Source: a virus (Duplodnaviria > Heunggongvirae > Uroviricota > Caudoviricetes). Taken from it: 10,585 bases of DNA. Below, piece after piece: positions 1 to 10,585 of the stretch. Location: IMG/VR virus record IMGVR_UViG_2698536559_000013; one strand, given 5' to 3'. Within the stretch, counting starts at the first letter, position 1; every line of letters starts with the position of its first letter. The translations under genes and the position numbers were made by a program. Below the pieces are notes generated by a model. That model did not search any database and was not told where the DNA came from. It worked only from the letters and a program-made list of their open reading frames with translations.

Positions 1-21
1 AATACGGTGCTCCGTTGACGC

Positions 22-3000
22 TTACGTTTTATCAACCACCAACGCACCATATTTAGACGGCCCAGATGTCTTAACATTCAATGCTCGACCACTTAATGCT
101 TCGCCTGACTTACTTTTCAACAGTAACGTAAATACCAGATTGTTGGTATCGCTCACTACAGCCGAAGATGCAGATGATGTGATCTCCAACACAGCCCCCT
201 TCACATCCGTTACGGCATCAATATTCTGGCTTGCGGTTATGCGTTTCCCATCCAGAACATACTCGGCCTGAATTGTGTACTGGCCTGATTTCGTTGCAGT
301 GAACTGCGTTGTTGCCTGTCCATGAGCATCCAGTTGCAGATTACTACTGGTCAATGATGCTCCCGTCGATGGTGTAATCGTTAAATCCACCTCGCCTGTA
401 AACGCATTGTTATTCGCATCAACCAACTGAATGTTTACTGTTGCGTTTTCACTGCCATCGGCCACAATCTCCTGTTTTGATACACTCATAGTAAGTTCTG
501 CAGAAGCAACATCGGGCACAAAAGTTAACTTAACGCTGCCAGATTCCACGCTATGGGAACCGTCAGTCACCCGTGCAGTCACCGTGTACTCACCAGCTTT
601 CACCGTTGTAAGCGGAACAGAAACATGCCCTGTTGAATCAGTCACGATATTTGTTGGTACAGATAATCCTTCAGATGAGGTGATGAGCTGAATCTTTTGC
701 CCATTGACCGACGCATTCGTATTTGTCAGCTGCACATCTAATACCGCTGCATCCTTACCATTAGCAGGAATATTGGAAATTAAACTACTGCTTTCAGGCG
801 TCAGTGACAGTGAAGCTCCGGTCATATTTGATGCAAAGGTCACTGTTAACTCAGTAGACATCTGAGAACCAGCATGAGCTGTAATCACGTAAGACCCCGG
901 AGTGGAGCTTATTAACGCAAAAATAGCATTACCATTTTCGTCAGTTGAAACAGCATGTTCACCACCAACTTGAGTTATCCCTGCTGGTAAAGACAATGTG
1001 ACAGCATAACCAGGAACAACATTGCCGAAACGGTCCGCAAGGCTTACAGTTACCATATTTCTCTGTTTTCCATCAGCCAATGCATTATTTTGGCTGGCTT
1101 CAAACTGAGAGAATGTAACCTGCTGCCGGTCCTCAATAAAGGTGATTTCTTTCTTAACACCTGAGAAATCATGACTATCAGATTTAACACCGATAGTAAT
1201 CTTACCAGCTCGTTTTGAAGTTACTGTCGCGCTATAGACACCGTCTTTTTCCGTTACAGTCCCAAACTCGACTCCTTCTGCCTGGTTAAGAGCATAAAAG
1301 CTCAGAGTGTTATCACCAGTGATTGCATTTCCTTGTGAATCCTTCACTGCCAGTTGTAGATTGATATTGTAACCAACTACCTGTTCTGCTGGTGCAGCGG
1401 TTAAAACAGCACTGACCTCAGAATCAGGTTCTGTTGCTGCTGTTTGCTTAATACTGAGAGTAAATGTTTTTCCCTGAACTTTTGCAGTTACACGTACCGT
1501 ACCAGCCTGCGAACCAGCAGTCAGAACAGAGTGATATACCCCAGCAGAGATTTCCTCTACCGCGCCTAATGACGGAGCAGTTACCGTTTCACGCTGTCGA
1601 GCACTATTGCTATCTGCTGTAAATTCCACTGACATTTCAATGTCATCAGCCAGTCCGGTTAATGCCTTACCGTTACTATCTTTCAGGCTTAATACTATCG
1701 GATAAGTGGATTGGCTATCAGCAGAGATCGTCGGCGACGAATCTCCATCCAGTGTAAAAGATGAATCCGCTGTCGAGACACCACTATTATTAACGCTGAT
1801 ATTCATAACGGCATAGTTGGAAACATTGCCTCTGTTATCCTGGACTGTGGCTCCAACATTCCACGAATTTACATCTCCGCTTTTATAAGCCGGTAAAGTG
1901 ATCTGCCATGATGTGCCATTTCCACTGATCTTACCGCCAGCCGCAGTGAATGCACTATCATTCCACTGTACAGACTTGATACCACCACTAGCATTGTTGA
2001 TTGTCAGTGTTACAGGGATGATTGATTCCCCCTCCCCCTGAACAGACTCTGGTAAGCTGATTTTCAGTGCATGCTTCTTCTTGTACTCCAGAACAATGTT
2101 GTTATTTCGTTCAACAAAATCATAACGCCGGTTCTGGACTTCTCGCATAACAGCAACATTGTCACTGCTAAGCTGTTCAGCAAGGGAAACGCCCGGGCGA
2201 TAATTAAACTCAACACCAAAGGTTGTATCGTGAACGTTGCTCTGTCCTTGCTTATGCTGTGCAGAAAACTTAATCAGAGGAACTGGTGTATAAGAAATTC
2301 CCCCAGTAACTGCGTAAGGGTTTTCCTGAAGATTATCGCTTCCAAATAACCCGACATTTTTACCATAATATTTTTCAAACTGAATGGATGCCCCTAATTG
2401 CGGATAAGCAGGTAGCCATCCTTCAGCAGAAAAATCCCAGCCATTTGCGGGTCTTTCCAGATAATCATCAATATCCCGACTGTTCTTCCAGTCAGACAAA
2501 CCAAAATAGGTATTTACACCAAGCCTGAAATAATCTCTCCAGTACTCAACCCCAAAACCTGCACGAGAGTGACTGCGACTTAAATCGTAATCATAGAAAA
2601 CATTCGCACCCAACATTGCGTTATCAGGAGTGAAATGACGAATCCCCAAACCAATATTGGTCTGATTTCGGTCATCAGTACGATGTAGTGATGTCTGACT
2701 GAATAGCACATAATCCTGAGTATCCAGCCATGGATATAAAAAGTCGAATGATGAATCCTTCAAGGAAAAAGAATCATCGACATTAAGCTTGATGCGCGCA
2801 TTGCCATATTGTTGCAACCAGTCGACGACCTCTTTTGTCGCCTGAGTTGATAAAGTATTTACAGCAAAACTACTTGCATTATTATTTGCTAGGCTCTGAC
2901 CTGCACTTGCTGCAAATGAGGCCACTTTATTTGCATGCTCATCGCTGGCATAAGTTTGCGTAACATCTTTATTACCAGATGATGCAAAACTGTTTGCTGG

Positions 3001-3102
3001 GATCAAAGAAAGAGAAACTGGAGATAATATCTGGGTAACAATTACCGACCATGTAATCGCGCCAGATGCAGTTTTTTTTAACTTTTTATTCACAGTGGTC
3101 AT
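22..3102 (-). CDS. Inverse autotransporter adhesin (intimin/invasin family), 1026 aa, apparently full length
   Basis: Long uninterrupted minus-strand ORF (stop TAA at 22-24, ATG at 3100-3102). N-terminus is hydrophobic and signal-peptide-like, followed by a sequence typical of the inverse-autotransporter beta-barrel domain (e.g. YDYDLSRSHSRAGFGVEYWRDYFRLGVNTYF, FGVEFNYRPGV). The rest is Ser/Thr/Val/Gly-rich, consistent with bacterial Ig-like (Big) repeat passenger domains. Family call is from recalled sequence features; domain boundaries were not computed. Confidence 0.85.
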   Translation of the reverse strand: MTTVNKKLKKTASGAITWSVIVTQILSPVSLSLIPANSFASSGNKDVTQTYASDEHANKVASFAASAGQSLANNNASSFAVNTLSTQATKEVVDWLQQYGNARIKLNVDDSFSLKDSSFDFLYPWLDTQDYVLFSQTSLHRTDDRNQTNIGLGIRHFTPDNAMLGANVFYDYDLSRSHSRAGFGVEYWRDYFRLGVNTYFGLSDWKNSRDIDDYLERPANGWDFSAEGWLPAYPQLGASIQFEKYYGKNVGLFGSDNLQENPYAVTGGISYTPVPLIKFSAQHKQGQSNVHDTTFGVEFNYRPGVSLAEQLSSDNVAVMREVQNRRYDFVERNNNIVLEYKKKHALKISLPESVQGEGESIIPVTLTINNASGGIKSVQWNDSAFTAAGGKISGNGTSWQITLPAYKSGDVNSWNVGATVQDNRGNVSNYAVMNISVNNSGVSTADSSFTLDGDSSPTISADSQSTYPIVLSLKDSNGKALTGLADDIEMSVEFTADSNSARQRETVTAPSLGAVEEISAGVYHSVLTAGSQAGTVRVTAKVQGKTFTLSIKQTAATEPDSEVSAVLTAAPAEQVVGYNINLQLAVKDSQGNAITGDNTLSFYALNQAEGVEFGTVTEKDGVYSATVTSKRAGKITIGVKSDSHDFSGVKKEITFIEDRQQVTFSQFEASQNNALADGKQRNMVTVSLADRFGNVVPGYAVTLSLPAGITQVGGEHAVSTDENGNAIFALISSTPGSYVITAHAGSQMSTELTVTFASNMTGASLSLTPESSSLISNIPANGKDAAVLDVQLTNTNASVNGQKIQLITSSEGLSVPTNIVTDSTGHVSVPLTTVKAGEYTVTARVTDGSHSVESGSVKLTFVPDVASAELTMSVSKQEIVADGSENATVNIQLVDANNNAFTGEVDLTITPSTGASLTSSNLQLDAHGQATTQFTATKSGQYTIQAEYVLDGKRITASQNIDAVTDVKGAVLEITSSASSAVVSDTNNLVFTLLLKSKSGEALSGRALNVKTSGPSKYGALVVDKT

Positions 3103-3351
3103 AGTTCAATCAACGTTATGAATATAATGAAAAAAATAACTGGTATGACAAGAGGCGCGAAATATACAGCTCGTTACAAAAAAATCAACTCAAAAATAAA
3201 ATAAAATCTCTGCATAAACTTTATGGCTAAATGATTTCACAACAATGGAAGAAAAATTTTGTTGCTCACGCAATCAATCATTTCGGGCGTTACAACTAGT
3301 CCTAGATTATATTCGCTAGGTATACTTTATTTTTAAGCTAATACTTTAGCT
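3103..3351 (-). promoter_or_regulatory. AT-rich upstream region of the adhesin gene; putative promoter/regulatory region
   Basis: About 250 bp of strongly AT-rich non-coding sequence between the stop of the P fragment and the adhesin start codon. No specific -35/-10 elements were confidently identified. Confidence 0.3.
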
Positions 3352-3912
3352 CTATTTCATCGCTCCTTTCAGCCCGAACTTAGCTTTGATTTCTGCGATC
3401 TTCGCCAGAGCCTGTGCACGATTTAGAGGTCTACCGCCCATGACAGGAAGTTGTTTTACTGGTTCAGGTATAGCCTCACCACGGTTAATTCGTGCGGTCA
3501 TACAGGACAGTTCATCGGCAGCCTTGCGCCGTAATTCCGCGTCAGTCAACGCATTGGCCCGCATGTTCTGATACAGGTTGGTAACCAGCCAGTAGTGCGC
3601 GTTTGATTTCCACGGATAAGACTCTGCATCCAGATACAGCCCGCGCTTCCGGCAATACTCGTAAACCATATCAACCAGCTCGCTGGCGTTTGGCAGTCCG
3701 GCGGTAACGGATGCTTCTTCCCGGCACCAGGCAACAAACTGCCCGGGTGATGGCAGGAATGGTCGATTCTGCCGACGGGCGACACGCACTCCGGCGCTCA
3801 CCTGTTCCATTGTGGTGATCCCGTTTTCCCGGAAAGCCAGAACCCACTGGCGGCGGATTTCGTTCAGTTCGTTCTGGTCCCGGTTAGCCAGGCTCGCCGG
3901 GAAAGTTGCCAG
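3352..3912 (-). pseudogene. P: C-terminal fragment of lambda replication protein P (about residues 48-233); first in-frame Met is at 3810, giving a 152-aa ORF
   Basis: Minus-strand translation reads LATFPASLANRDQNELNEIRRQWVLAFRENGITTMEQVSAGVRVARRQNRPFLPSPGQFVAWCREEASVTAGLP...RAQALAKIAEIKAKFGLKGAMK, which I recognise as near-identical to the C-terminal part of lambda P. In-frame sequence above about 3913 (RANHGYKCVRCRDADI) no longer matches P. The extreme C-terminus (GAMK) and downstream sequence also differ from lambda, where ren would follow. Confidence 0.85.
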
Positions 3913-3997
3913 TATATCTGCATCGCGGCATCGAACGCACTTATACCCGTGATTTGCTCGTGGAAGTTTTTCTCGACGGACGCGGTAACGGCCTGAA
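3913..3997. other. Junction segment of unknown origin between the P fragment and the gam-proximal lambda-like sequence
   Basis: P homology ends near 3913, and sequence I recognise as the region just upstream of lambda gam (tcactaa...cctgttttcctaatcagcccggcatttcgcgggcgatattttcacagc) begins near 3998. The roughly 85 bp between matches neither as far as I can recall. Confidence 0.4.
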
Positions 3998-4079
3998 TCA
4001 CTAATCTCCTTTCCTGTTTTCCTAATCAGCCCGGCATTTCGCGGGCGATATTTTCACAGCCATTTTCAGGAGTTCAGCC

Positions 4080-4376
4080 ATGAACGCTTATTACATTCAG
4101 GATCGTCTTGAGGCTCAGAGCTGGGCGCGTCACTACCAGCAGATCGCCCGTGAAGAGAAAGAGGCAGAACTGGCAGACGACATGGAAAAAGGCCTGCCCC
4201 AGCACCTGTTTGAATCGCTATGCATCGATCATTTGCAACGTCACGGGGCCAGCAAAAAAGCCATTACCCGTGCGTTTGATGACGATGTTGAGTTTCAGGA
4301 GCGCATGGCAGAACACATCCGGTACATGGTTGAAACCATTGCTCACCACCAGGTTGATATTGATTCAGAGGTATAA
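4080..4376 (+). CDS. gam: Gam (short GamS form, 98 aa), RecBCD inhibitor
   Basis: ORF translation [98 protein letters not shown] matches lambda Gam from its internal Met onward, with two substitutions relative to my recollection. Strong SD caggag sits 7 nt upstream of the ATG. Confidence 0.9.
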
Positions 4377-4381
4377 AACGA

Positions 4382-4911
4382 ATGAGTACTGCACTCGCAA
4401 CGCTGGCAGGGAAGCTGGCTGAACGTGTCGGCATGGATTCTGTCGACCCACAGGAACTGATCACCACTCTTCGCCAGACGGCATTTAAAGGTGATGCCAG
4501 CGATGCGCAGTTCATCGAAAAACCCGCGAAGGCAGAGAAATCACCGGACCGTGGCAGTCGCATCCCAAACGAATGTTGCGGCATAAAGCCATGATTCAGT
4601 GTGCCCGTCTGGCCTTCGGATTTGCTGGTATCTATGACAAGGATGAAGCCGAGCGCATTGTCGAAAATACTGCATACACTGCGGAACGTCAGCCGGAACG
4701 CGACATCACTCCGGTTAACGATGAAACCATGCAGGAGATTAACACTCTGCTGATCGCCCTGGATAAAACATGGGATGACGACTTATTGCCGCTCTGTTCC
4801 CAGATATTTCGCCGCGACATTCGCGCATCGTCAGAACTGACACAGGCCGAAGCAGTGAAAGCTCTTGGATTCCTGAAACAGAAAGCCACTGAGCAGAAGG
4901 TGGCAGCATGA
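4382..4911 (+). pseudogene. bet: bet (Red-beta single-strand annealing protein) disrupted by an internal out-of-frame deletion
   Basis: N-terminal 45 residues (MSTALATLAGKLAERVGMDSVDPQELITTLRQTAFKGDASDAQFI) match lambda Bet, then the frame reads non-Bet sequence to a stop at 4592-4594. The Bet C-terminal part (PKRMLRHKAMIQCARLAFGFAGIYDKDEAERIVENTAYTAERQPERD...[11 protein letters not shown]) continues in the +1 frame to 4911. The breakpoint lies near 4515-4520 (ttcatcg/aaaaacccgcgaagg). Confidence 0.85.
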
Positions 4912-5588
4912 CACCGGACATTATCCTGCAGCGTACCGGGATCGACGTGAGAGCTGTCGAACAGGGGGATGATGCATGGCACAAATTACGGCTCGGCGTC
5001 ATCACCGCTTCAGAAGTTCATAACGTGATAGCAAAGCCCCGATCAGGAAAGAAGTGGCCTGACATGAAAATGTCCTACTTCCACACCCTGCTGGCTGAGG
5101 TTTGCACCGGTGTGGCTCCGGAAGTTAATGCTAAGGCGCTGGCCTGGGGAAAACAGTACGAGAACGACGCCAGAACTCTGTTTGAATTCACTTCCGGCGT
5201 GAATGTTACTGAATCCCCGATCATCTATCGCGACGAAAGTATGCGCACCGCCTGCTCTCCCGATGGTTTATGCAGTGACGGCAATGGCCTTGAGCTGAAA
5301 TGCCCGTTTACCTCCCGGGATTTCATGAAGTTCCGGCTCGGTGGTTTCGAGGCCATAAAGTCGGCTTACATGGCCCAGGTGCAGTACAGCATGTGGGTGA
5401 CGCGAAAAGATGCCTGGTACTTTGCCAACTATGACCCGCGTATGAAGCGTGAAGGACTGCATTATGTCGTGGTTGAGCGGGATGAAAAGTACATGGCGAG
5501 TTTTGACGAGATGGTGCCGGAGTTCATCGAAAAAATGGACGAGGCACTGGCTGAAATTGGTTTTGTATTTGGGGAGCAATGGCGATGA
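4908..5588 (+). CDS. exo: Lambda-type exonuclease (Red-alpha, Exo), 226 aa
   Basis: Full-length ORF whose translation ([65 protein letters not shown]...[15 protein letters not shown]) matches lambda Exo with a few substitutions. ATGA start/stop overlap with bet, as in lambda. Confidence 0.95.
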
Positions 5589-5767
5589 AGCATCCTCACG
5601 ATAATATCCGGGTAGGCGCGATCACTTTCGTCTACTCCGTTACAAAGCGAGGCTGGGTATTTCCCGGCCTTTCTGTTATCCGAAATCCCCTGAAAGCACA
5701 GCGGCTGGCTGAGGAGATAAATAATAAACGGGGAGCTGTATGCACAAAGCATCTCCCGTTGAGTTAA
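5585..5767 (+). CDS. orf60a: Lambda orf60a-like small protein (60 aa from the ATG overlapping the exo stop; an upstream ATG at 5579 would give 62 aa)
   Basis: Translation [57 protein letters not shown]... matches my recollection of lambda orf60a. ATGA overlap with the exo stop. Confidence 0.7.
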
Positions 5768-5931
5768 GAACGAGTATCGAGATGGCACATAGCCTCGCTC
5801 AAATTGGAGTCAGGTTTGTGCCAATACCAGTAGAAACAGACGAAGAATTTCATACGTTAGCCGCATCCCTTTCACAAAAGCTGGAAATGATGGTGGCGAA
5901 AGCAGAAGCAGATGAGAGAGACCAGGTATGA
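5740..5931 (+). CDS. orf63: Lambda orf63-like small protein (63 aa)
   Basis: ORF of exactly 63 codons ([63 protein letters not shown]) in the position of orf63 of the lambda early-left operon. Overlaps the 3' end of orf60a in another frame. Confidence 0.7.
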   Translation: MHKASPVELRTSIEMAHSLAQIGVRFVPIPVETDEEFHTLAASLSQKLEMMVAKAEADERDQV

Positions 5932-6011
5932 CAACCACTGAATGCATTTTTCTGGCAGCGGTCTTCATATTCTGTGTGCTTATGCTTGCCGACATGGGAC
6001 TTGTTCAATGA
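5928..6011 (+). CDS. Candidate 27-aa hydrophobic small protein (MTTTECIFLAAVFIFCVLMLADMGLVQ)
   Basis: Below the ORF-track size cutoff. Its ATG overlaps the orf63 stop as ATGA (5928-5931) and its stop overlaps the orf61 start as ATGA (6008-6011). The core is strongly hydrophobic, consistent with a single transmembrane helix. Confidence 0.4.
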   Translation: MTTTECIFLAAVFIFCVLMLADMGLVQ

Positions 6012-6223
6012 CACCTCAGCAAGAAAACGCCCTTCGCAGCATTGCCCATCTGGCTAATTATGAAATCAAAAAAGCCAGACAGCAGTTTCCGGATAAAAAC
6101 GTCGATGACATTTGCCGTAGCGTACTGAAGAAGCACCGCGAAACGGTAACGCTGATGGGATTCACACCGACTCATTTAAGCCTGGCGATCGGCATGTTAA
6201 ACGGCGTCTTTAAGGAACGGTGA
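6008..6223 (+). CDS. orf61: Lambda orf61-like small protein (71 aa from this ATG)
   Basis: Translation MTPQQENALRSIAHLANYEIKKARQQFPDKNVDDICRSVLKKHRETVTLMGFTPTHLSLAIGMLNGVFKER; position and sequence are consistent with lambda orf61. The track ORF starts at an upstream ATG (5942), but the ATGA-coupled start at 6008 is more plausible. Confidence 0.65.
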   Translation: MTPQQENALRSIAHLANYEIKKARQQFPDKNVDDICRSVLKKHRETVTLMGFTPTHLSLAIGMLNGVFKER

Positions 6224-6225
6224 GC

Positions 6226-6315
6226 ATGAAAAACAAAATCATCATGGAGCTACAGGCTCCTTTTTTATTATTCGCATTCACCCTCAAGCGTATTAACCAA
6301 CAATTCAGGGATTAA
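6226..6315 (+). CDS. Candidate 29-aa small ORF (MKNKIIMELQAPFLLFAFTLKRINQQFRD)
   Basis: Short ORF filling the gap between orf61 and orf73, with aagga about 9 nt upstream of the ATG. No homology recognised; could be non-coding spacer. Confidence 0.2.
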   Translation: MKNKIIMELQAPFLLFAFTLKRINQQFRD

Positions 6316-6321
6316 TGAAAG

Positions 6322-6543
6322 ATGGCAGACATCATTGATTCAGCATCAGAAATTGAAGAATTACAGCGCAACACAGCAATAAAAATGCGCCGCCTGAACC
6401 ACCAGGCTATATCTGCCACTCATTGTTGTGAGTGTGGCGATCCGATAGATGAACGAAGACGTCTGGCCGTTCAGGGTTGTCGGACTTGTGCAAGTTGCCA
6501 GGAAGATCTGGAGCTTATCAGTAAACAGAGAGGTTCGAAGTGA
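6322..6543 (+). CDS. orf73: TraR/DksA-family C4 zinc-finger protein (lambda orf73-like), 73 aa
   Basis: 73-aa ORF with two Cys pairs (CCECGDP...CRTCASC) typical of the TraR/DksA zinc finger. Position matches lambda orf73. Confidence 0.8.
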   Translation: MADIIDSASEIEELQRNTAIKMRRLNHQAISATHCCECGDPIDERRRLAVQGCRTCASCQEDLELISKQRGSK

Positions 6544-7088
6544 GCGAAATTAACTCTCAGGCACTGCGTGAAGCGGCAGAGCAGGCAATGCATGACGACT
6601 GGGGATTTGATGCGGACCTTTTCCATGAGCTGGTAACACCATCGATTGTGCTGGCGCTGCTGGATGAACGGGAATCCCAAAACAAGCGTATTGCAGAACT
6701 GGAGAAAAGCGAAGAGCAACTCATTAACGAGCGTGACCATGCTGAGTCTGCTTTAGATGATATGTACTTTGCAGCAACCGGTAACAGGCCGGAGTGGAGC
6801 AACTGGTTCGGCTTTTCAGATGCTGTCGATGCCGTGGTTGACAGAATTGCTGATTTAGAAGCTAAACAATGCATTGAAGAGATGAGTAAACAAAGTTGCG
6901 AAGCTCGGGAGCGTGATTTGTTTGAATCATGGGTAATGCATTCAATTTGTATTTCCAAATCGACGCTTGAAGGATTGCGCACCGAAACTGGATACCGTAA
7001 CGCGACCTTATCAGGAACAGACTTCAACCGCATGTGGGAACAATGGAAATCTATCCGCGCTGCTGGTATTCGCATCAAAGGAGACTGA
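6540..7088 (+). CDS. ea22: Ea22-like protein, 182 aa (GTG start)
   Basis: 182-codon ORF whose N-terminus MSEINSQALREAAEQAMHDDWGFDADLFHELVTPSIVL matches my recollection of lambda Ea22. GTG start overlaps the orf73 stop (GTGA). Central region is coiled-coil-like and charged. Confidence 0.8.
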   Translation: MSEINSQALREAAEQAMHDDWGFDADLFHELVTPSIVLALLDERESQNKRIAELEKSEEQLINERDHAESALDDMYFAATGNRPEWSNWFGFSDAVDAVVDRIADLEAKQCIEEMSKQSCEARERDLFESWVMHSICISKSTLEGLRTETGYRNATLSGTDFNRMWEQWKSIRAAGIRIKGD

Positions 7089-7089
7089 T

Positions 7090-7299
7090 ATGGCTATTGC
7101 CGCAAGTTATACCATGCATCTCTATTGTGATTGTCGCCAGTGTACGGAAGGTGTATATCCAGTGCCAGACTTCGGTGAGTATATCGGTACGTCATGGTCT
7201 GGTTGTGCAAAAGAGGCCCGTAAAGATGGGTGGCGAATAAGCAAAGACAAAACACGTACTTTTGCGCCCGGGCATAAAGTTTTGAGGATTAACACATGA
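7090..7299 (+). CDS. ea8.5: Ea8.5-like Cys-rich small protein (69 aa from the ATG at 7090)
   Basis: ORF with the Cys motif HLYCDCRQCTEG...SGCAKEARKDGW in the position of lambda ea8.5. SD aaggag immediately upstream of the 7090 ATG. The track's longer version (from 6967) overlaps ea22 out of frame and is less likely. Confidence 0.7.
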   Translation: MAIAASYTMHLYCDCRQCTEGVYPVPDFGEYIGTSWSGCAKEARKDGWRISKDKTRTFAPGHKVLRINT

Positions 7300-8078
7300 C
7301 CACTATTACCAAAGAACGTATTGAATTGTTCATTAAAAATCCGCTTGAAAACGGGCTTACTCGTGGCGAACAAATGGAACTGGCACGAATTGCACTGGCA
7401 TCACTGGAACGCGAACAGATTCGCCACGAGCATGCCAAATGGTCTGACTCCACATTTGGCTGCGTTGGCCCCATTGGTCCACTGAAACACCTCTCAAAAG
7501 AGGCACTGGAAGCCGCAGCCGAACCAGACGATCTTAGCGAGTGGGCTGATATGCAGTTTCTGTTGTGGGATGCACAACGCCGTGCTGGCATCAGCGATGC
7601 TGAAATTAACGTTGCTATGGAAGATAAATTGAAGATCAACATGGAGCGCCAGTGGCCTGAGCCAAAAGATGGTGAGCCTCGCTTGCACATTAAAGAACCC
7701 GGCAACTCTCCGGTAATTCCGGATGGTTTATCCACGGTATGCGCTGAGGCTTATCAGGTTGTAGGAGTTATGGCAGATGCGCTTGGTGTATTCGGTGATG
7801 CAGCAGTACAGAAAGTTCTGGATAACCTGTCACAGCAAAAACTTGTTCACAGAGATGTGCTGCCGTTCTCGCTTCCGGTAACTCCGGATAGTTGGATAAG
7901 CTGTAGTGAGCGAATGCCGAACGACGCGCAGTGGTGCGTAGTGAACACAGAATACGGGTATTACGCGCAATGCTGGTCTGAAGGTCAAGGGTGGCTTGGT
8001 GATGATATCAGCATCCCTGAATGCGATGTAATCAATTGGATGCCACTACCAGAACCGCCGCAGGAGGTGAATCAATGA
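7296..8078 (+). CDS. Phage accessory protein with an N-terminal MazG-like (DUF550, dATP/dGTP pyrophosphohydrolase-type) domain and a C-terminal DUF551-like Cys/Trp-rich domain, 260 aa
   Basis: ATGA overlap with the ea8.5 stop; SD gagga 7 nt upstream. The N-terminal half carries acidic helix motifs (KEALEAAAEPDDLSEWADMQFLLWDAQRRAG) resembling all-alpha NTP pyrophosphohydrolases. The C-terminal half (WISCSERMPNDAQWCVVNTEYGYYAQCWSEGQGWLGDDISIPECDVINWMPLPEPP) resembles DUF551. Domain calls are from memory of motifs, not a profile search. Confidence 0.75.
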   Translation: MTTITKERIELFIKNPLENGLTRGEQMELARIALASLEREQIRHEHAKWSDSTFGCVGPIGPLKHLSKEALEAAAEPDDLSEWADMQFLLWDAQRRAGISDAEINVAMEDKLKINMERQWPEPKDGEPRLHIKEPGNSPVIPDGLSTVCAEAYQVVGVMADALGVFGDAAVQKVLDNLSQQKLVHRDVLPFSLPVTPDSWISCSERMPNDAQWCVVNTEYGYYAQCWSEGQGWLGDDISIPECDVINWMPLPEPPQEVNQ

Positions 8079-8158
8079 GCTGGCCTGAAGCATTCGCAAC
8101 GGTAGGAATTGCAATGGCGGTAGCACTGGTTTTGTATTCAATTTGTCGCTGGGGATAA
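8075..8158 (+). CDS. Candidate 27-aa membrane peptide (MSWPEAFATVGIAMAVALVLYSICRWG)
   Basis: ATGA overlap with the stop of the 260-aa gene; SD-like caggaggtga 5-14 nt upstream. Hydrophobic core consistent with one transmembrane helix. Below the ORF-track cutoff. Confidence 0.4.
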   Translation: MSWPEAFATVGIAMAVALVLYSICRWG

Positions 8159-8279
8159 CGATGATGCTCATGCGGAAATCATCAAAAAAATGGAACTGCT
8201 AACATGATTTAGGTGGGAGCCTGGAAGATGGCTCCACATATCAACATAGATTATTTCAGGATTCCATATTTTAACTAAT

Positions 8280-9164
8280 CTAAGTTCGACTATTTGGGGC
8301 ATTGATATGCTGTAAATGATGCTTAAGCCAATTTCCAGCCGCGCCTGGTGGCGATTTTTTATTCCAAAGCAGATCGATAGAAATTGCCTTTGGCCAGCCA
8401 GGTACGTCGAGCTGAACCAGCGGTTTTTCTGTTGCAAACTCCTCAACCAGAGCACAGGGCAGAGAGCACCAGCCAAATCCCTGTACGGCCATACTGAGTA
8501 ACAACAAATAGTTAGGTGCAGACCAAACCGGTCCACGGGCAATCATCTCCCGGTTATCGATATAAGTATTAAGACGAAGTTCTCGCCATGAATGAAGTTG
8601 TTCCCGCTGGATTGTTTTTTCTGCAGACAGTGGATGTGACGCCGAAACATAAATGCCCATCCACGCTTGCATCGGTAAACGGGTTGAGCCAATATCGGTG
8701 GGGTAGTGTTCCCGAGACTCAATTAAGCCGATCTGCGCTCGTTCTTTTTGCAAAAGATCGATGACATCGACATCCTCACCAATTAAAACCTCTAACTCAG
8801 TATGTGGAAACTGACTATCAAACTGCACCATGATGTCTTCTAATAAGTCAGGGTGTAGGGTATCGGAAAGCACAAACGTCAGACGAGCTTCAGTCTCTCC
8901 GGCAAGCGAAACCGCCACCTCCTCAAGACGTTCACTGGCTGACAAAATCGCATGAACGTAACTCAATACTTTCTTTCCTTCCTCTGTCAGCACAGGTTCT
9001 CGCGAAGAGCGATCGAATAATGATATACCAAGATCGACCTCAAGATTGGCAATTGACGTACTGACTGCGGACTGACTTTTGCGTAATCTTCGTGCCGCAG
9101 CAGAAAAGGAGCCACAGGAAACCGCTTCAACAAATGTACTTAACGCTTCAAGTGAGTAACGCAT
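8280..9164 (-). CDS. LysR-family transcriptional regulator, 294 aa
   Basis: N-terminal HTH typical of LysR-type regulators (LEALSTFVEAVSCGSFSAAARRLRKSQSAVSTSIANLEVDLGISLFDRSSREPVLTEEG) followed by a co-inducer-binding-type domain. Transcribed divergently from the adjacent transporter gene. Confidence 0.9.
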   Translation of the reverse strand: MRYSLEALSTFVEAVSCGSFSAAARRLRKSQSAVSTSIANLEVDLGISLFDRSSREPVLTEEGKKVLSYVHAILSASERLEEVAVSLAGETEARLTFVLSDTLHPDLLEDIMVQFDSQFPHTELEVLIGEDVDVIDLLQKERAQIGLIESREHYPTDIGSTRLPMQAWMGIYVSASHPLSAEKTIQREQLHSWRELRLNTYIDNREMIARGPVWSAPNYLLLLSMAVQGFGWCSLPCALVEEFATEKPLVQLDVPGWPKAISIDLLWNKKSPPGAAGNWLKHHLQHINAPNSRT

Positions 9165-9267
9165 AATCTATCAATTTTTTCGATGGTATCTATCTTTTAT
9201 ATATCACATAAATCGATAAAAATCTCACAACTCCATAACGCGGTCGAAACTGTAAGAAAGGTAAGTT
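9165..9267. promoter_or_regulatory. Divergent intergenic control region between the LysR gene and the PACE transporter gene
   Basis: 103-bp AT-rich spacer between divergent start codons. Contains an imperfect inverted repeat, tttttcgat (9176-9184) and atcgataaaaa (9213-9223), as might serve a LysR-type operator. No promoter elements were verified. Confidence 0.4.
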
Positions 9268-9726
9268 ATGCAACATAATGCGATTCAACGCAGATCGTTA
9301 CTTGAGCGTATTTTTCACGCTATTTGCTTTGAAGGAATTGCCACTGCGATTCTGGCCCCCACCACAGCATGGTTAATGCAGCGAACTATACTCGAAATGG
9401 GCGGGATGACTATCTTGTTGGCTTCAACTGCAATGATCTGGAATATCATCTATAACATGCTATTTGATCGCTACTGGCCTGCTCATCAGGTAAAACGAAC
9501 TGCAAAAGTTCGTGCATTCCATGCTTTGGGCTTTGAAAGTGGATTTATCGCGATCGGCGTCATTATGGTGTCCTGGATTCTGAGCGTCAGTCTGTTACAG
9601 GCTTTTACACTAGAGATAGGATTCTTCCTTTTCTTTCTACCATATACCATGTTCTACAATTGGGCCTATGACAGCTTACGTTTACGTGTTGTGAAACAGC
9701 ATCAACAACGTATGCTTGCCAGATAA
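9268..9726 (+). CDS. PACE-family (AceI-like) small efflux transporter, 152 aa
   Basis: Two tandem repeats each beginning with the R-x-x-h-A-x-x-F-E motif (ERIFHAICFEG and VRAFHALGFESG), plus WNxxYNxxFD-like motifs (MIWNIIYNMLFD, MFYNWAYD) and four predicted hydrophobic helices. Divergent LysR partner, as in aceR-aceI. Confidence 0.8.
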   Translation: MQHNAIQRRSLLERIFHAICFEGIATAILAPTTAWLMQRTILEMGGMTILLASTAMIWNIIYNMLFDRYWPAHQVKRTAKVRAFHALGFESGFIAIGVIMVSWILSVSLLQAFTLEIGFFLFFLPYTMFYNWAYDSLRLRVVKQHQQRMLAR

Positions 9727-9800
9727 TGTTTTCCCAGGGGAGTAATGAAAATCGCGCAATAATTTTCGATATCCATACTGTACCCCCACCGACTTAACAT

Positions 9801-9827
9801 CCCCGCCCTCGCGGGGATTTCTTTTAT
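9801..9827 (+). terminator. Rho-independent terminator downstream of the PACE gene
   Basis: GC-rich hairpin ccccgc-cctc-gcgggg (9801-9816) followed by a T-rich tract atttcttttat. Confidence 0.6.
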
Positions 9828-9830
9828 CTG

Positions 9831-9857
9831 AACTCGCTACGGCGAGTTTTGTTTTAT
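9831..9857 (+). terminator. Second tandem hairpin plus T-tract; possible back-up terminator
   Basis: aactcgc-tacg-gcgagtt stem-loop (9831-9848) followed by ttgttttat. Confidence 0.4.
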
Positions 9858-9868
9858 GGGGATGATAA

Positions 9869-10036
9869 ATGCACTTCCGAGTCACAGGAGAATGGAATGG
9901 AGAGCCATTCAACAGGGTTATCGAAACAGAGAACATCAACGACTGCTATGACCACTGGATAATATGGGCGCAGATAGCACATGCAGACATAACCAATATT
10001 CGAATTGAAGAACTGAAAGAACACCAAGCCGCCTGA
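9869..10036 (+). CDS. Candidate 55-aa protein of unknown function (MHFRVTGEWNGEPFNRVIETENINDCYDHWIIWAQIAHADITNIRIEELKEHQAA)
   Basis: Below the track cutoff. SD gggga 6 nt upstream of the ATG; in-frame stop immediately upstream; followed directly by a terminator hairpin. No family recognised. Confidence 0.45.
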   Translation: MHFRVTGEWNGEPFNRVIETENINDCYDHWIIWAQIAHADITNIRIEELKEHQAA

Positions 10037-10049
10037 TGGCGGTTTTTTT
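10028..10049 (+). terminator. Rho-independent terminator/attenuator overlapping the stop of the 55-aa ORF
   Basis: gccgcc-tgat-ggcgg hairpin followed by ttttttt (10043-10049). Confidence 0.55.
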
Positions 10050-10063
10050 ATTGGAGACAAGAA

Positions 10064-10408
10064 ATGTCAGATTTGGCTATGAAGGTTTTGAAATGGCAAT
10101 CGACTGGCGATGTTGGCATCAGTAGCGCAACTCTTGCCTCAATCGCATGTGGACTGAAAAAGAATATCTATGGTCATAGCTTCGGTGCTCCACATGACGC
10201 AGCCGATTTCAGACGATGCGTTGCACTTGTTGAGCAGATTCCAGAAATCAGAGATTCATTCGACAAGGTTGCAAAGCGCGTTCCGGCATTCAAAGGCATC
10301 CTCAACGAATGGGATTCCCTCGTTGCTCTGTTGAAGTCAGAAATGAAGATACACGGAAACAAAGCACCAGAGACTTACAGAAGAATCAGCGAGCTACGCA
10401 AGGACTAA
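10064..10408 (+). CDS. Hypothetical protein, 114 aa, unknown function
   Basis: ORF with SD ggaga 6 nt upstream of the ATG. Soluble-looking, mixed-charge protein (MSDLAMKVLKWQSTGDVGISSATLASIACGLKKNIYGHSFGAPHDAADFRRCVALVEQIPEIRDSFDKVAKRV...). No family recognised. Confidence 0.6.
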   Translation: MSDLAMKVLKWQSTGDVGISSATLASIACGLKKNIYGHSFGAPHDAADFRRCVALVEQIPEIRDSFDKVAKRVPAFKGILNEWDSLVALLKSEMKIHGNKAPETYRRISELRKD

Positions 10409-10585
10409 CCATGAAATAACACCGCCTCACACTCGATGAGGCCTGTTCATTGCTCAATGATATCCAGACCTACCGCAATAATACCAACTCAATAAATGGA
10501 GATTCCAGGTGGAAGAAGAAATCTTCACTCGTGAAGAGGCAGCATCGTATCTGAAGGTAGTGTAGTGGTCAACAAAAACTGGCCA

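What the first reader, a model, noticed from the sequence alone, without database searches (positions are those of the whole stretch)
8280..9726. Divergent LysR regulator / PACE-family efflux pump pair flanking the prophage relic
The 152-aa membrane protein carries the duplicated RxxhAxxFE and WN/YN-type motifs of PACE (AceI-like) transporters and is paired with a divergent LysR regulator, the same architecture as aceR-aceI. PACE pumps export biocides such as chlorhexidine and natural polyamines. To my recollection they are uncommon in Escherichia coli, so the locus may say something about the host taxon or be accessory itself.
Basis: partly seen in the sequence, partly recalled or inferred. 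Interest (0 to 1): 0.45.

Follow-up and report, generated by a model that had tools for sequence, protein, structure and literature searches.

The report
Phage-carried PACE efflux pump with regulator
This is an ordinary PACE-family small efflux pump gene with its LysR-type regulator, rare in E. coli (14 of 5,426 complete genomes), and it rides as cargo inside lambda-like prophages, which explains how it gets around.

Summary
Window 9268-9726 (+) encodes a 152-aa PACE transporter: two BTP domains (E 2.8e-44), above the NCBIfam PACE cut-offs, four helices, both duplicated motifs, TM1 glutamate E22. Window 8280-9164 (-) encodes a divergent 294-aa LysR-type regulator whose best family match is AceR, far below the orthologue cut-off.

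The pair does not flank the prophage relic. It is a ~1.6-kb cargo segment (about 8204-9797) inside it, between the dATP/dGTP-pyrophosphohydrolase/DUF551 gene and the pL-operon terminator t-L4 upstream of ORF55/ORF114/xis/int.

The same cargo, at most 5 nt different, occupies the same slot in lambdoid prophages at four attachment sites (thrW, argW, torS side, attLambda) in E. coli and E. albertii. Only 14 of 5,426 complete E. coli genomes carry it.

In Citrobacter, Salmonella and Enterobacter the pair is chromosomal between yqeF and yqeG; E. coli K-12 has an empty site there. The nearest relatives are about 80% identical, so no donor is identified.

Published work already records rare PACE genes in E. 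coli next to phage and transposase sequences, and tested one, probably this one, with about 2-fold effects. The defined phage slot and multi-site spread are the increment. Verdict: real, ordinary, essentially known.

The parts
8280..9164 (-). LysR-type transcriptional regulator gene (294 aa), divergent from the pump gene and antisense to phage pL transcription
   Evidence: ORF. Pfam HTH_1 and LysR_substrate. Best NCBIfam match is the AceR model NF052373 (126.9 bits, cut-off 500). Best PDB matches are 8j4n (1.4e-31) and the AceR DNA-binding domains 9iyz/8wpa. Intact in all 10 carrier loci compared.
9165..9267 (.). 103-bp divergent control region. The ~60 bp nearest the regulator gene are conserved across Enterobacteriaceae genera.
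   Evidence: Alignment of 78 intergenic regions from different species.
9170..9184 (.). Dyad 1, ATCAATTTTTTCGAT (ATC-N9-GAT, the T-N11-A shape): candidate LysR recognition site overlapping the regulator's own leader
   Evidence: ATC..GAT is present at this aligned position in 78 of 78 loci. Only 6 such patterns occur in the whole window, two of them here.
9203..9217 (.). Dyad 2, ATCACATAAATCGAT, centred 33 bp from dyad 1: candidate activation site next to the pump promoter
   Evidence: ATC..GAT in 59 of 78 loci, ATC..CAT in 18 and ATC..TAT in 1. The two-site layout parallels the AceR footprints (PMC5961012).
9268..9726 (+). PACE-family transporter gene (152 aa; 4 TM helices; E22, D67, H85, E90 and E116 invariant among 24 relatives), co-oriented with the phage pL operon
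8204..9797 (.). Cargo segment with no homology to any phage record. Both ends carry the hexamer TAACAT (8200-8205, 9795-9800).
   Evidence: Phage homology ends at about 8203 and resumes at 9798/9799. No phage record covers the interior.
8216..8235 (-). GGAGCC-N8-GGCTCC hairpin about 45 nt downstream of the regulator's stop codon. It has no U-tract, so it is only a possible weak terminator or a remnant.
   Evidence: Fold of 8190-8290 (-): -24 kcal/mol, z = -2.6. Not reported by the terminator scan.
9799..9828 (+). Phage terminator t-L4 (stem-loop 9799-9818 plus T-tract), immediately after the cargo. It is the only terminator available to the pump transcript.
   Evidence: Terminator scan. Annotated as t-L4 in phage 434 M60848 and HK022 X51962, and homology starts exactly there.
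9830..9859 (+). Second hairpin plus T-tract in the phage backbone
   Evidence: conserved in 434, HK022 and 720R6.
7296..8078 (+). Phage early-left gene (dATP/dGTP pyrophosphohydrolase + DUF551) bounding the cargo slot on the left
   Evidence: Pfam; the same gene is the left neighbour in all carrier prophages.
9869..10408 (+). Phage ORF55 (9869-10036) and ORF114 (10064-10408), the right-hand backbone genes that precede xis/int in 434 and HK022
   Evidence: 93.6% nt identity to 434 and HK022; annotation in M60848.

Best explanation
The locus is a self-contained two-gene efflux module. One gene encodes a four-helix PACE-family transporter; the other encodes its divergently transcribed LysR-type regulator. 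The module is carried as non-phage cargo (a 'moron') in the early-left arm of lambdoid prophages.

Shown here:
- Family membership of both proteins.
- The cargo limits (about 8204-9797), with the right edge abutting the phage pL-operon terminator t-L4.
- Presence of the near-identical module in the same backbone slot at four attachment sites in E. coli and E. albertii.
- Its chromosomal home, between yqeF and yqeG, in other Enterobacteriaceae, and an empty site there in E. coli K-12.
- Two ATC-N9-GAT dyads in the spacer that are conserved across genera.

Inferred from characterised relatives:
- The pump works as a dimer and exchanges protons for a cationic substrate, using the membrane-embedded glutamate E22.
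- The regulator sits on dyad 1, autoregulating its own gene. On binding the same class of cation it engages dyad 2 and activates a weak pump promoter, as AceR does for aceI.
- In a lysogen the module runs on its own control region, and pump transcripts stop at the phage's t-L4.
- During prophage induction, pL read-through would transcribe the pump gene in sense and the regulator gene in antisense.
- The expected phenotype is modest: about 2-fold higher tolerance to acriflavine and chlorhexidine, as reported for an E. coli PACE gene that is probably this one. The natural substrate is unknown.

The module most likely entered a lambdoid phage once, from a Citrobacter-like chromosome. It then spread among prophages by recombination between shared flanks and by swapping of integrase modules.
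For: Identity of the proteins.

Cargo status:
- Only the two ends of the 8150-9860 query match phages or plasmids.
- The left edge is at about 8203. The right edge, at 9798/9799, is the first base of the annotated t-L4.
- 'Empty' phages (HK022, 720R6, AH21A060 prophage) hold a 285-bp ASCH-type ORF in the same slot.

Mobility:
- thrW in 7 genomes, argW in 6, torS side in 1.
- attLambda in OZ038756.1 and in E. albertii.
- The VCSW7 carrier is an almost complete lambda-like prophage.
- Alleles differ by at most 5 nt over 1,344 bp, and an identical allele occurs at both thrW and argW.

Retention: both genes are intact in every carrier, including argW stubs of under 3.5 kb and relics cut by IS3.

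Native home and empty site.

Regulation: dyads conserved in 78/78 and 59/78 loci. AceR activates aceI from two sites upstream of a weak promoter (PMC5961012).

Function of relatives:
- E. coli TW07793 ECTW07793_0407 gave chlorhexidine 0.39-0.78 against 0.195-0.39 and acriflavine 6.25 against 3.125 ug/ml (PMC4337561).
- PACE pumps are proton-coupled dimers (PMC9045395).
Against: - No expression or transport data exist for this locus.
- I could not confirm that the tested ECTW07793_0407 has this exact sequence.
- The Salmonella orthologue STY3166, from the species group about 83% identical to this protein, conferred no resistance in the same screen. The biocide phenotype may therefore be negligible.
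- No consensus sigma-70 promoter was found in the spacer. The scan's hit count equals the shuffle expectation, so the promoter positions are guesses.
- The only near-complete carrier prophage (VCSW7) has its major capsid gene interrupted, so an infectious phage carrying the module has not been seen.
- No deposited phage genome carries any PACE gene.
- No exact empty-site junction was found, so the capture event itself cannot be reconstructed.
- The NJ placement next to Citrobacter amalonaticus has no bootstrap support and sits on a long branch.
Confidence: 0.8

Rival explanations
1. The pump's real job is to export a metabolite, such as a short-chain diamine (cadaverine or putrescine) or another endogenous cation. 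The biocide effects would then be incidental, and the regulator would sense that metabolite.
For: The pair is a conserved chromosomal module at a fixed locus (yqeF-yqeG) in all 80 Enterobacteriaceae loci retrieved. That argues for an old physiological role that predates biocides. Short-chain diamines are reported as physiological AceI substrates (cited in PMC9045395). STY3166 gave no biocide resistance.
Against: PA2880, another PACE pump, gave no cadaverine resistance (PMC9045395), so the diamine role does not hold family-wide. This protein is not an AceI orthologue (93.8 bits against a cut-off of 180). There are no data for the enterobacterial clade.
Confidence: 0.35
2. The pair is a neutral hitch-hiker: functional-looking genes that persist only because the prophage relics are young. 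They would give the host no benefit.
For: Alleles are almost identical (at most 5 nt apart), so there has been little time for decay. Frequency is very low (0.26%). Reported phenotypes are about 2-fold at best.
Against: In the argW relics nearly every phage gene has been deleted or broken, while both cargo genes and their spacer remain intact in every genome examined. The exact protein is seen on about 1,000 contigs. All family-invariant residues are retained.
Confidence: 0.15
3. The cargo is the ancestral Escherichia copy of the yqeF-yqeG pair. On this view a phage picked it up before the chromosomal copy was deleted, and it was not imported from another genus.
For: E. coli K-12 has a clean empty site exactly where Citrobacter, Salmonella and Enterobacter have the pair. 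Across 68 species, the cargo's identity to each species tracks the identity of E. coli's own yqeF/yqeG to that species (r = 0.85). No sampled species is closer than about 79% nt.
Against: The NJ tree puts the cargo inside the Citrobacter amalonaticus group, whereas K-12 yqeF/yqeG branch next to Salmonella. The cargo is about 1.5 times more diverged than a vertically inherited copy should be: divergence ratio 2.3-2.8 against 1.4-1.9 in the Salmonella control. The cargo tails show no similarity to the yqeF-yqeG spacer of K-12 or of other genera.
Confidence: 0.12
4. The pair is ordinary chromosomal or genomic-island DNA lying next to the prophage relic.
For: In the window it lies near the int-proximal end of the relic, with an IS3 just beyond.
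Against: Phage backbone genes lie on both sides (DUF551 gene on the left; t-L4, ORF55, ORF114, xis and int on the right). The pair travels with them to four different att sites.
Confidence: 0.02

Closest known systems
Enterobacterial chromosomal PACE pump with divergent LysR regulator (yqeF-yqeG locus; e.g. Salmonella Typhi STY3166 and Citrobacter orthologues; NCBIfam NF033665)
   Same: Same two-gene divergent layout, the same ~100-bp spacer with the same two dyads, and the same protein lengths. PACE is 79-84% and LysR 76-82% identical at the amino-acid level.
   Different: Here the module is not at yqeF-yqeG but inside lambdoid prophages. It lies on a long branch, and its native flanks are gone.
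E. coli TW07793 ECTW07793_0407 (EII93401), tested by Hassan et al. 2015 (PMC4337561) and discussed by Slipski et al. 2017 (PMC5840245)
   Same: An E. coli PACE protein with the TM1 glutamate at position 22, described as flanked by transposase and phage sequences. It is listed next to STY3166 in the published table, as this protein would be expected to be. Probably the same gene.
   Different: Sequence identity could not be verified with the tools available. The papers do not define the phage slot, the attachment sites or the regulator.
AceI-AceR of Acinetobacter baumannii (prototype PACE pump and its LTTR activator)
   Same: Tandem BTP domains, four TM helices, the TM1 glutamate, a divergent LTTR, and two regulator sites upstream of a weak pump promoter.
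   Different: Not orthologous: AceI equivalog 93.8 bits against 180, and AceR equivalog 126.9 bits against 500. AceI-AceR is core-genome in Acinetobacter. The dyad sequences differ.
emrE in the DLP12 lambdoid prophage of E. coli K-12 (an SMR pump as prophage cargo; placement from established knowledge)
   Same: A small four-helix proton-coupled cation/biocide exporter carried as cargo by a defective lambdoid prophage. In strain Rb-50 one prophage carries both emrE and this pair.
   Different: A different transporter family, a different slot (next to the replication/nin region), and no dedicated regulator.

Membership tests
PACE (proteobacterial antimicrobial compound efflux) family | [quoted passage not shown] | tested here: met
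   Two stretches, E 2.8e-44, 149.4 bits against a cut-off of 25.6.
PACE (proteobacterial antimicrobial compound efflux) family | Curated family thresholds (NCBIfam NF033664 PACE_transport; NF033665 PACE_efflu_PCE) | tested here: met
   169.8 bits against 80, and 205.6 bits against 165.
PACE (proteobacterial antimicrobial compound efflux) family | About 150 aa with four transmembrane helices | tested here: met
   Four hydrophobic segments. AlphaFold helices 11-37, 41-69, 79-105, 109-151, mean pLDDT 81.6.
PACE (proteobacterial antimicrobial compound efflux) family | [quoted passage not shown] | tested here: met
   RIFHAICFE at 14, RAFHALGFE at 82, WNIIYN at 58, YNWAYD at 130; the halves align with a score of 64. 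E22, E90, D67, H85 and E116 are invariant in 24 relatives.
PACE (proteobacterial antimicrobial compound efflux) family | Proton-coupled efflux of cationic biocides, dyes or diamines | not testable with these tools
   Only literature on relatives: an E. coli TW07793 homologue gave about 2-fold changes for chlorhexidine and acriflavine (PMC4337561).
AceI orthologue group (NCBIfam NF033663 equivalog) | Score above the equivalog cut-off | tested here: not met
   93.8 bits against a cut-off of 180. It is a PACE member but not an AceI orthologue.
LysR-type transcriptional regulators (LTTR) | N-terminal HTH_1 domain plus C-terminal LysR substrate-binding domain, about 300 aa | tested here: met
   PF00126 7.1e-20 (residues 5-64) and PF03466 9.7e-21 (residues 89-285).
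LysR-type transcriptional regulators (LTTR) | Divergent from the target gene, with T-N11-A dyads in the shared spacer | tested here: met
   103-bp spacer. Two ATC-N9-GAT dyads 33 bp apart, conserved in 78/78 and 59/78 species loci. Binding itself was not tested.
AceR orthologue group (NCBIfam NF052373 equivalog) | Score above the equivalog cut-off | tested here: not met
   AceR is the best-scoring LTTR model, but at 126.9 bits against a cut-off of 500. The PDB AceR DNA-binding domains match at only about 4e-13.
Lambdoid-phage cargo gene ('moron' / lysogenic-conversion module) | Lies between conserved phage backbone genes and is absent from otherwise homologous phages | tested here: met
   Backbone on both sides. 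HK022, 720R6, 434 and AH21A060 have a different small ORF, or nothing, in this slot. No phage record contains the segment.
Lambdoid-phage cargo gene ('moron' / lysogenic-conversion module) | Travels with the phage: same slot, different attachment sites and hosts | tested here: met
   thrW, argW, torS side and attLambda; E. coli and E. albertii.
Lambdoid-phage cargo gene ('moron' / lysogenic-conversion module) | Own promoter and terminator, allowing expression from the repressed prophage | tested here: inconclusive
   The native control region is retained and conserved, but no consensus promoter was detected above chance. There is no terminator of its own, and the phage t-L4 follows at 9799.
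Lambdoid-phage cargo gene ('moron' / lysogenic-conversion module) | Carried by an infectious phage and changes the phenotype of the lysogen | not testable with these tools
   The best candidate prophage (VCSW7) is nearly complete but its capsid gene is interrupted. No phage isolate carries it.

The most novel reading that the evidence does not exclude
The pair may be a true lysogenic-conversion module. On this reading, infectious lambda-like phages move a regulated PACE pump between Escherichia strains and species, and lysogeny itself measurably raises tolerance to cationic biocides or dyes, or changes diamine export. That would be the first documented phage vehicle for the PACE family. [quoted passage not shown]
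Probability: 0.3. Interest if true: 0.5.

Novelty: already known. Interest (0 to 1): 0.3.

Why it matters
PACE pumps are usually core-genome genes, and how the rare accessory copies move has been an acknowledged gap. This locus gives a concrete answer for Escherichia: a regulated PACE module sits in a fixed slot of the lambdoid early-left operon, just upstream of terminator t-L4, and it has reached at least four chromosomal attachment sites and two species. That matters to people tracking biocide-tolerance determinants, because temperate phages are not usually screened for efflux genes. It is also a tidy example of a prophage decaying around cargo that stays intact. The effect on resistance is probably small, and both the gene and its rarity in E. 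coli are already in the literature and in RefSeq annotation.

Tried and rejected
1. PDB searches for a solved PACE structure. The sequence search gave nothing below E = 0.97. Foldseek with the model gave a best E of 0.94, to K2P channels, which is meaningless. No structural comparison is possible.

2. Confirming that the published ECTW07793_0407 is this protein. No supplementary sequences are held, and the library has only two papers that name it. Left unverified.

3. Finding an exact 'empty-site' junction (…GGAACTGCTAAC|ATCCCCGCC…). There were 0 exact hits in viral contigs. No E. coli genome covers at least 80% of the joined flanks. The partial hits (H180-184) turned out to be the end of the ASCH-type ORF, which merely resembles the left flank. 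A simple-insertion model is therefore not supported; a module swap is more likely.

4. Looking for remnants of the native yqeF/yqeG flanks in the cargo tails, and for remnants of the pair in the K-12 yqeF-yqeG spacer. Only chance-level matches were found.

5. dN/dS among E. coli alleles. There are too few substitutions (0-4 per gene) to be informative.

6. Promoter scan of the spacer. It gave no consensus match above shuffle expectation, so I do not assign -35/-10 boxes.

7. GC content as a marker of foreign origin. The cargo is 40-49% GC and its flanks 43-51%, which is not distinctive.

8. Overlapping ORFs on other frames within 8280-9726 (for example 8168-8542 on the minus strand and 8316-8501 on the plus strand) were treated as spurious, because the LysR and PACE frames account for the whole region.
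Full report

Yes. The window has an 885-nt ORF on the minus strand (8280-9164, 294 aa). It also has a 459-nt ORF on the plus strand (9268-9726, 152 aa), separated from the first by 103 bp.

- The 152-aa product matches Pfam BTP/PF05232 twice (E 2.8e-44). It passes two curated NCBIfam PACE models: NF033665 at 205.6 bits against a cut-off of 165, and NF033664 at 169.8 against 80.
The two halves align to each other, and the hydropathy profile shows four hydrophobic segments.
- An AlphaFold model built on 24 relatives has four long helices (mean pLDDT 81.6).
- Among those relatives E22, D67, H85, E90 and E116 are invariant. At a constant offset of 16, these line up with the functionally probed PA2880 residues E38, D83, H101, E106 and D132 (PMC9045395). 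This is my inference, not an alignment to PA2880.
- The 294-aa product has HTH_1 and LysR_substrate domains. Its best family model is AceR, but at 126.9 bits against a cut-off of 500. Likewise the pump scores 93.8 against 180 on the AceI equivalog.

So this is a PACE pump with a PACE-type LTTR, but not the AceI/AceR orthologues.

**2. Where is it?**

The window is E. coli. It is 100% identical to strains 377323_2f and Z1323PEC0014, apart from a 257-bp deletion in bet and the first 25 nt. The annotated context is a degraded lambdoid prophage at tRNA-Thr (thrW) next to proA:

int – IS3 – ORF114 – ORF55 – PACE – LysR – dATP/dGTP-pyrophosphohydrolase/DUF551 – ea22 … exo – bet – gam – truncated P – inverse autotransporter – hydrolase – nin genes – IS3.

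The pair therefore lies inside the relic, not beside it.

- Only the ends of a query spanning 8150-9860 match phages or plasmids.
- Phage homology stops at about 8203. It resumes at 9798/9799, which is the first base of the terminator annotated as t-L4 in phage 434 (M60848) and HK022 (X51962). The terminator scan finds that hairpin at 9799-9818 and a second one at 9830-9849.
- ORFs 9869-10036 and 10064-10408 are ORF55 and ORF114 of 434.
- In phages without the cargo (HK022, 720R6, a prophage of AH21A060), the slot between the EaA/DUF551 gene and t-L4 holds a 285-bp ASCH-type ORF.
- I found no exact empty-site junction, so this is best read as a module swap at a mosaic boundary. The hexamer TAACAT at both cargo ends is noted but may be chance.

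**3. How common is it, and how does it move?**

Megablast and the more sensitive blastn both find the pair in exactly 14 of 5,426 complete E. coli genomes. All copies are chromosomal and at least 99% identical, and there is no second PACE lineage.

| Attachment site | Carriers | State of the prophage |
|---|---|---|
| thrW | 7 complete genomes | Relics like the window |
| argW (KplE1/CPS-53 site) | 6 complete genomes | Mostly stubs under 3.5 kb (intS', dATPase', LysR, PACE, ORF55, ORF114, torI); one larger prophage in Rb-50 that also carries emrE |
| torS side | 1 complete genome (soil strain VCSW7) | Nearly complete lambda-like prophage, from N/cI/cro to tail fibre, but its capsid gene is interrupted |
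| attLambda (int next to ybhC-ybhJ-ybhI-ybhH-ybhD-pgl) | OZ038756.1 and the E. albertii variant, found through wider assemblies | Lambda-type prophage in OZ038756.1 (N, cI, cro, cII, cIII, kil); lambda-type int and xis in the E. albertii contigs |

In every case the slot is the same. Alleles differ by at most 5 nt over the 1,344 coding bases, and an identical allele occurs at both thrW and argW. The exact protein is on roughly 1,000 contigs, all from Escherichia. No genuine phage record carries any PACE gene; the five hits in the phage collection are mis-filed bacterial contigs.

**4. Where did it come from?**

A scan of one genome per species found the divergent pair, with the same ~100-bp spacer, in all 80 retained Enterobacteriaceae loci. 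These include Citrobacter, Salmonella, Enterobacter, Kluyvera, Leclercia and Klebsiella.

- Best identity to the window is 79-84% for the pump and 76-82% for the regulator at the amino-acid level, and 72-79% at the nucleotide level. Homology is confined to the two genes.
- In Citrobacter and Salmonella the neighbours are kduD-kduI-yqeF on one side and yqeG on the other.
- In K-12, yqeF and yqeG are adjacent with a 254-bp spacer. Homology to Citrobacter and Salmonella runs up to the regulator's stop codon and resumes about 54 bp before yqeG, which is a clean empty site.
- An NJ tree puts the cargo on a long branch inside the Citrobacter amalonaticus group, whereas K-12 yqeF/yqeG branch next to Salmonella. 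The cargo is also about 1.5 times more diverged than a vertically inherited copy would be.

I therefore favour import from a Citrobacter-like but unsampled donor over a 'rescued ancestral Escherichia gene'. The tree has no support values, so this is tentative.

**5. How does it probably work?**

An alignment of 78 spacers shows that the ~60 bp next to the regulator gene are strongly conserved. That block contains two ATC-N9-GAT dyads (9170-9184 and 9203-9217), centred 33 bp apart. Dyad 1 is exact in 78 of 78 loci and dyad 2 in 59 of 78.

This mirrors AceR, which binds two sites upstream of a weak aceI promoter and activates it when the ligand is present (PMC5961012). I infer the following:

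- Autoregulation of the regulator gene through dyad 1.
- Ligand-dependent activation of the pump promoter through dyad 2.
- A dimeric, proton-coupled cation exporter that uses E22.
- Termination of the pump transcript at the phage's t-L4, since the cargo has no terminator of its own.

The pump gene has the same orientation as pL transcription. Prophage induction should therefore read through it in sense and through the regulator gene in antisense. Promoter positions could not be assigned, because the scan was no better than chance.

**6. What is already known?**

[quoted passage not shown] - They cloned an E. coli TW07793 gene, ECTW07793_0407. Its MICs were chlorhexidine 0.39-0.78 against 0.195-0.39, acriflavine 6.25 against 3.125, and proflavine 6.25-12.5 against 6.25 ug/ml. 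The Salmonella orthologue STY3166 gave nothing (PMC4337561).
- Slipski et al. give E22 as the TM1 glutamate of that E. coli protein. They say the gene in TW07793 and KTE84 is flanked by transposase and phage sequences (PMC5840245).
- RefSeq already names the product 'multidrug/biocide efflux PACE transporter'.

The gene, its family, its rarity and its loose phage association are thus known. The additions here are the precise slot (upstream of t-L4), the four att sites in two species, the conserved regulatory dyads, the native yqeF-yqeG home and the empty site in K-12.

**7. Verdict**

The feature is a canonical, already annotated PACE/LTTR module. The mildly interesting part is its vehicle. 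Interest 0.3; novelty 'already known'.

The most novel reading still open is that infectious lambdoid phages convert lysogens to higher biocide tolerance through this module. I put that at about 0.3. It needs induction and transfer experiments plus MIC tests.

Noticed in passing
window 22-3102 (-), and window 1-25: A large inverse-autotransporter/invasin-like adhesin gene (IAT_beta plus Big_1/Invasin_D3 repeats) sits inside the same prophage relic, where the immunity and replication genes should be, next to a 5'-truncated P gene (3352-3810). It is 1,183 aa in the closest genomes but only 1,026 aa here, and the first 25 nt of the window do not match those genomes. This suggests a further breakpoint in the source strain.
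   Followed up: partly
window 4382-4911 (junction at 4517/4519): The phage recombinase gene bet is broken. The window lacks 257 bp that are present in otherwise 100%-identical strains (L001 16113-16369). This leaves two ORF fragments (4382-4594 and 4573-4911), while gam and exo stay intact.
   Followed up: partly
L008 (E. coli Rb-50, NZ_AP025682.1) 276-608 and 9131-10577: One argW prophage carries two unrelated small cation/biocide exporters: emrE (SMR family) beside the replication genes, and the LysR-PACE pair near torI.
   Followed up: no
L005 (E. coli VCSW7, NZ_CP082357.1) about 10436-22682: The major capsid gene of the lambda-like carrier prophage is split by an ~11-kb integrated element. 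That element has its own integrase, primase, major capsid and head-decoration genes. It looks like a capsid-forming satellite inserted into its helper's capsid gene.
   Followed up: no
phage collection records AGRM01000002.1 and CAKLQF020000001.1 / CAKLQF020000024.1 / CAKLQH020000020.1 / CAKLQH020000028.1: These records, filed as phage (a 691-kb Salmonella houtenae contig and 'Acinetobacter phage MD-2021a' contigs of 49-378 kb), look like bacterial contigs from their size and organism names. They are the only 'phage' hits for a PACE protein.
   Followed up: no
plasmids NZ_CP114989.1 (42216-42659) and NZ_CP126871.1 (57207-57650), Enterobacter hormaechei: Small plasmids of 51-58 kb carry a PACE gene 73% identical at the amino-acid level to this one. 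This is a second, plasmid-borne kind of vehicle for the enterobacterial PACE clade.
   Followed up: no
window 8075-8158 (+): A 27-codon hydrophobic ORF (MSWPEAFATVGIAMAVALVLYSICRWG) overlaps the stop codon of the DUF551 gene, just left of the cargo. It lies within the block shared by all carrier prophages examined (homology to the window starts at 8037).
   Followed up: no
window 8200-8205 and 9795-9800: The same hexamer, TAACAT, spans both cargo junctions. It could be microhomology used in the capture event or simply chance. No exact empty-site junction was found.
   Followed up: partly
L099 (GCA_032666265.1) 169-7245: A P4-like satellite module (primase, Psu, Ogr/Delta) lies directly next to the argW PACE relic in one assembly. 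This shows that the site is a busy integration hotspot.
   Followed up: no
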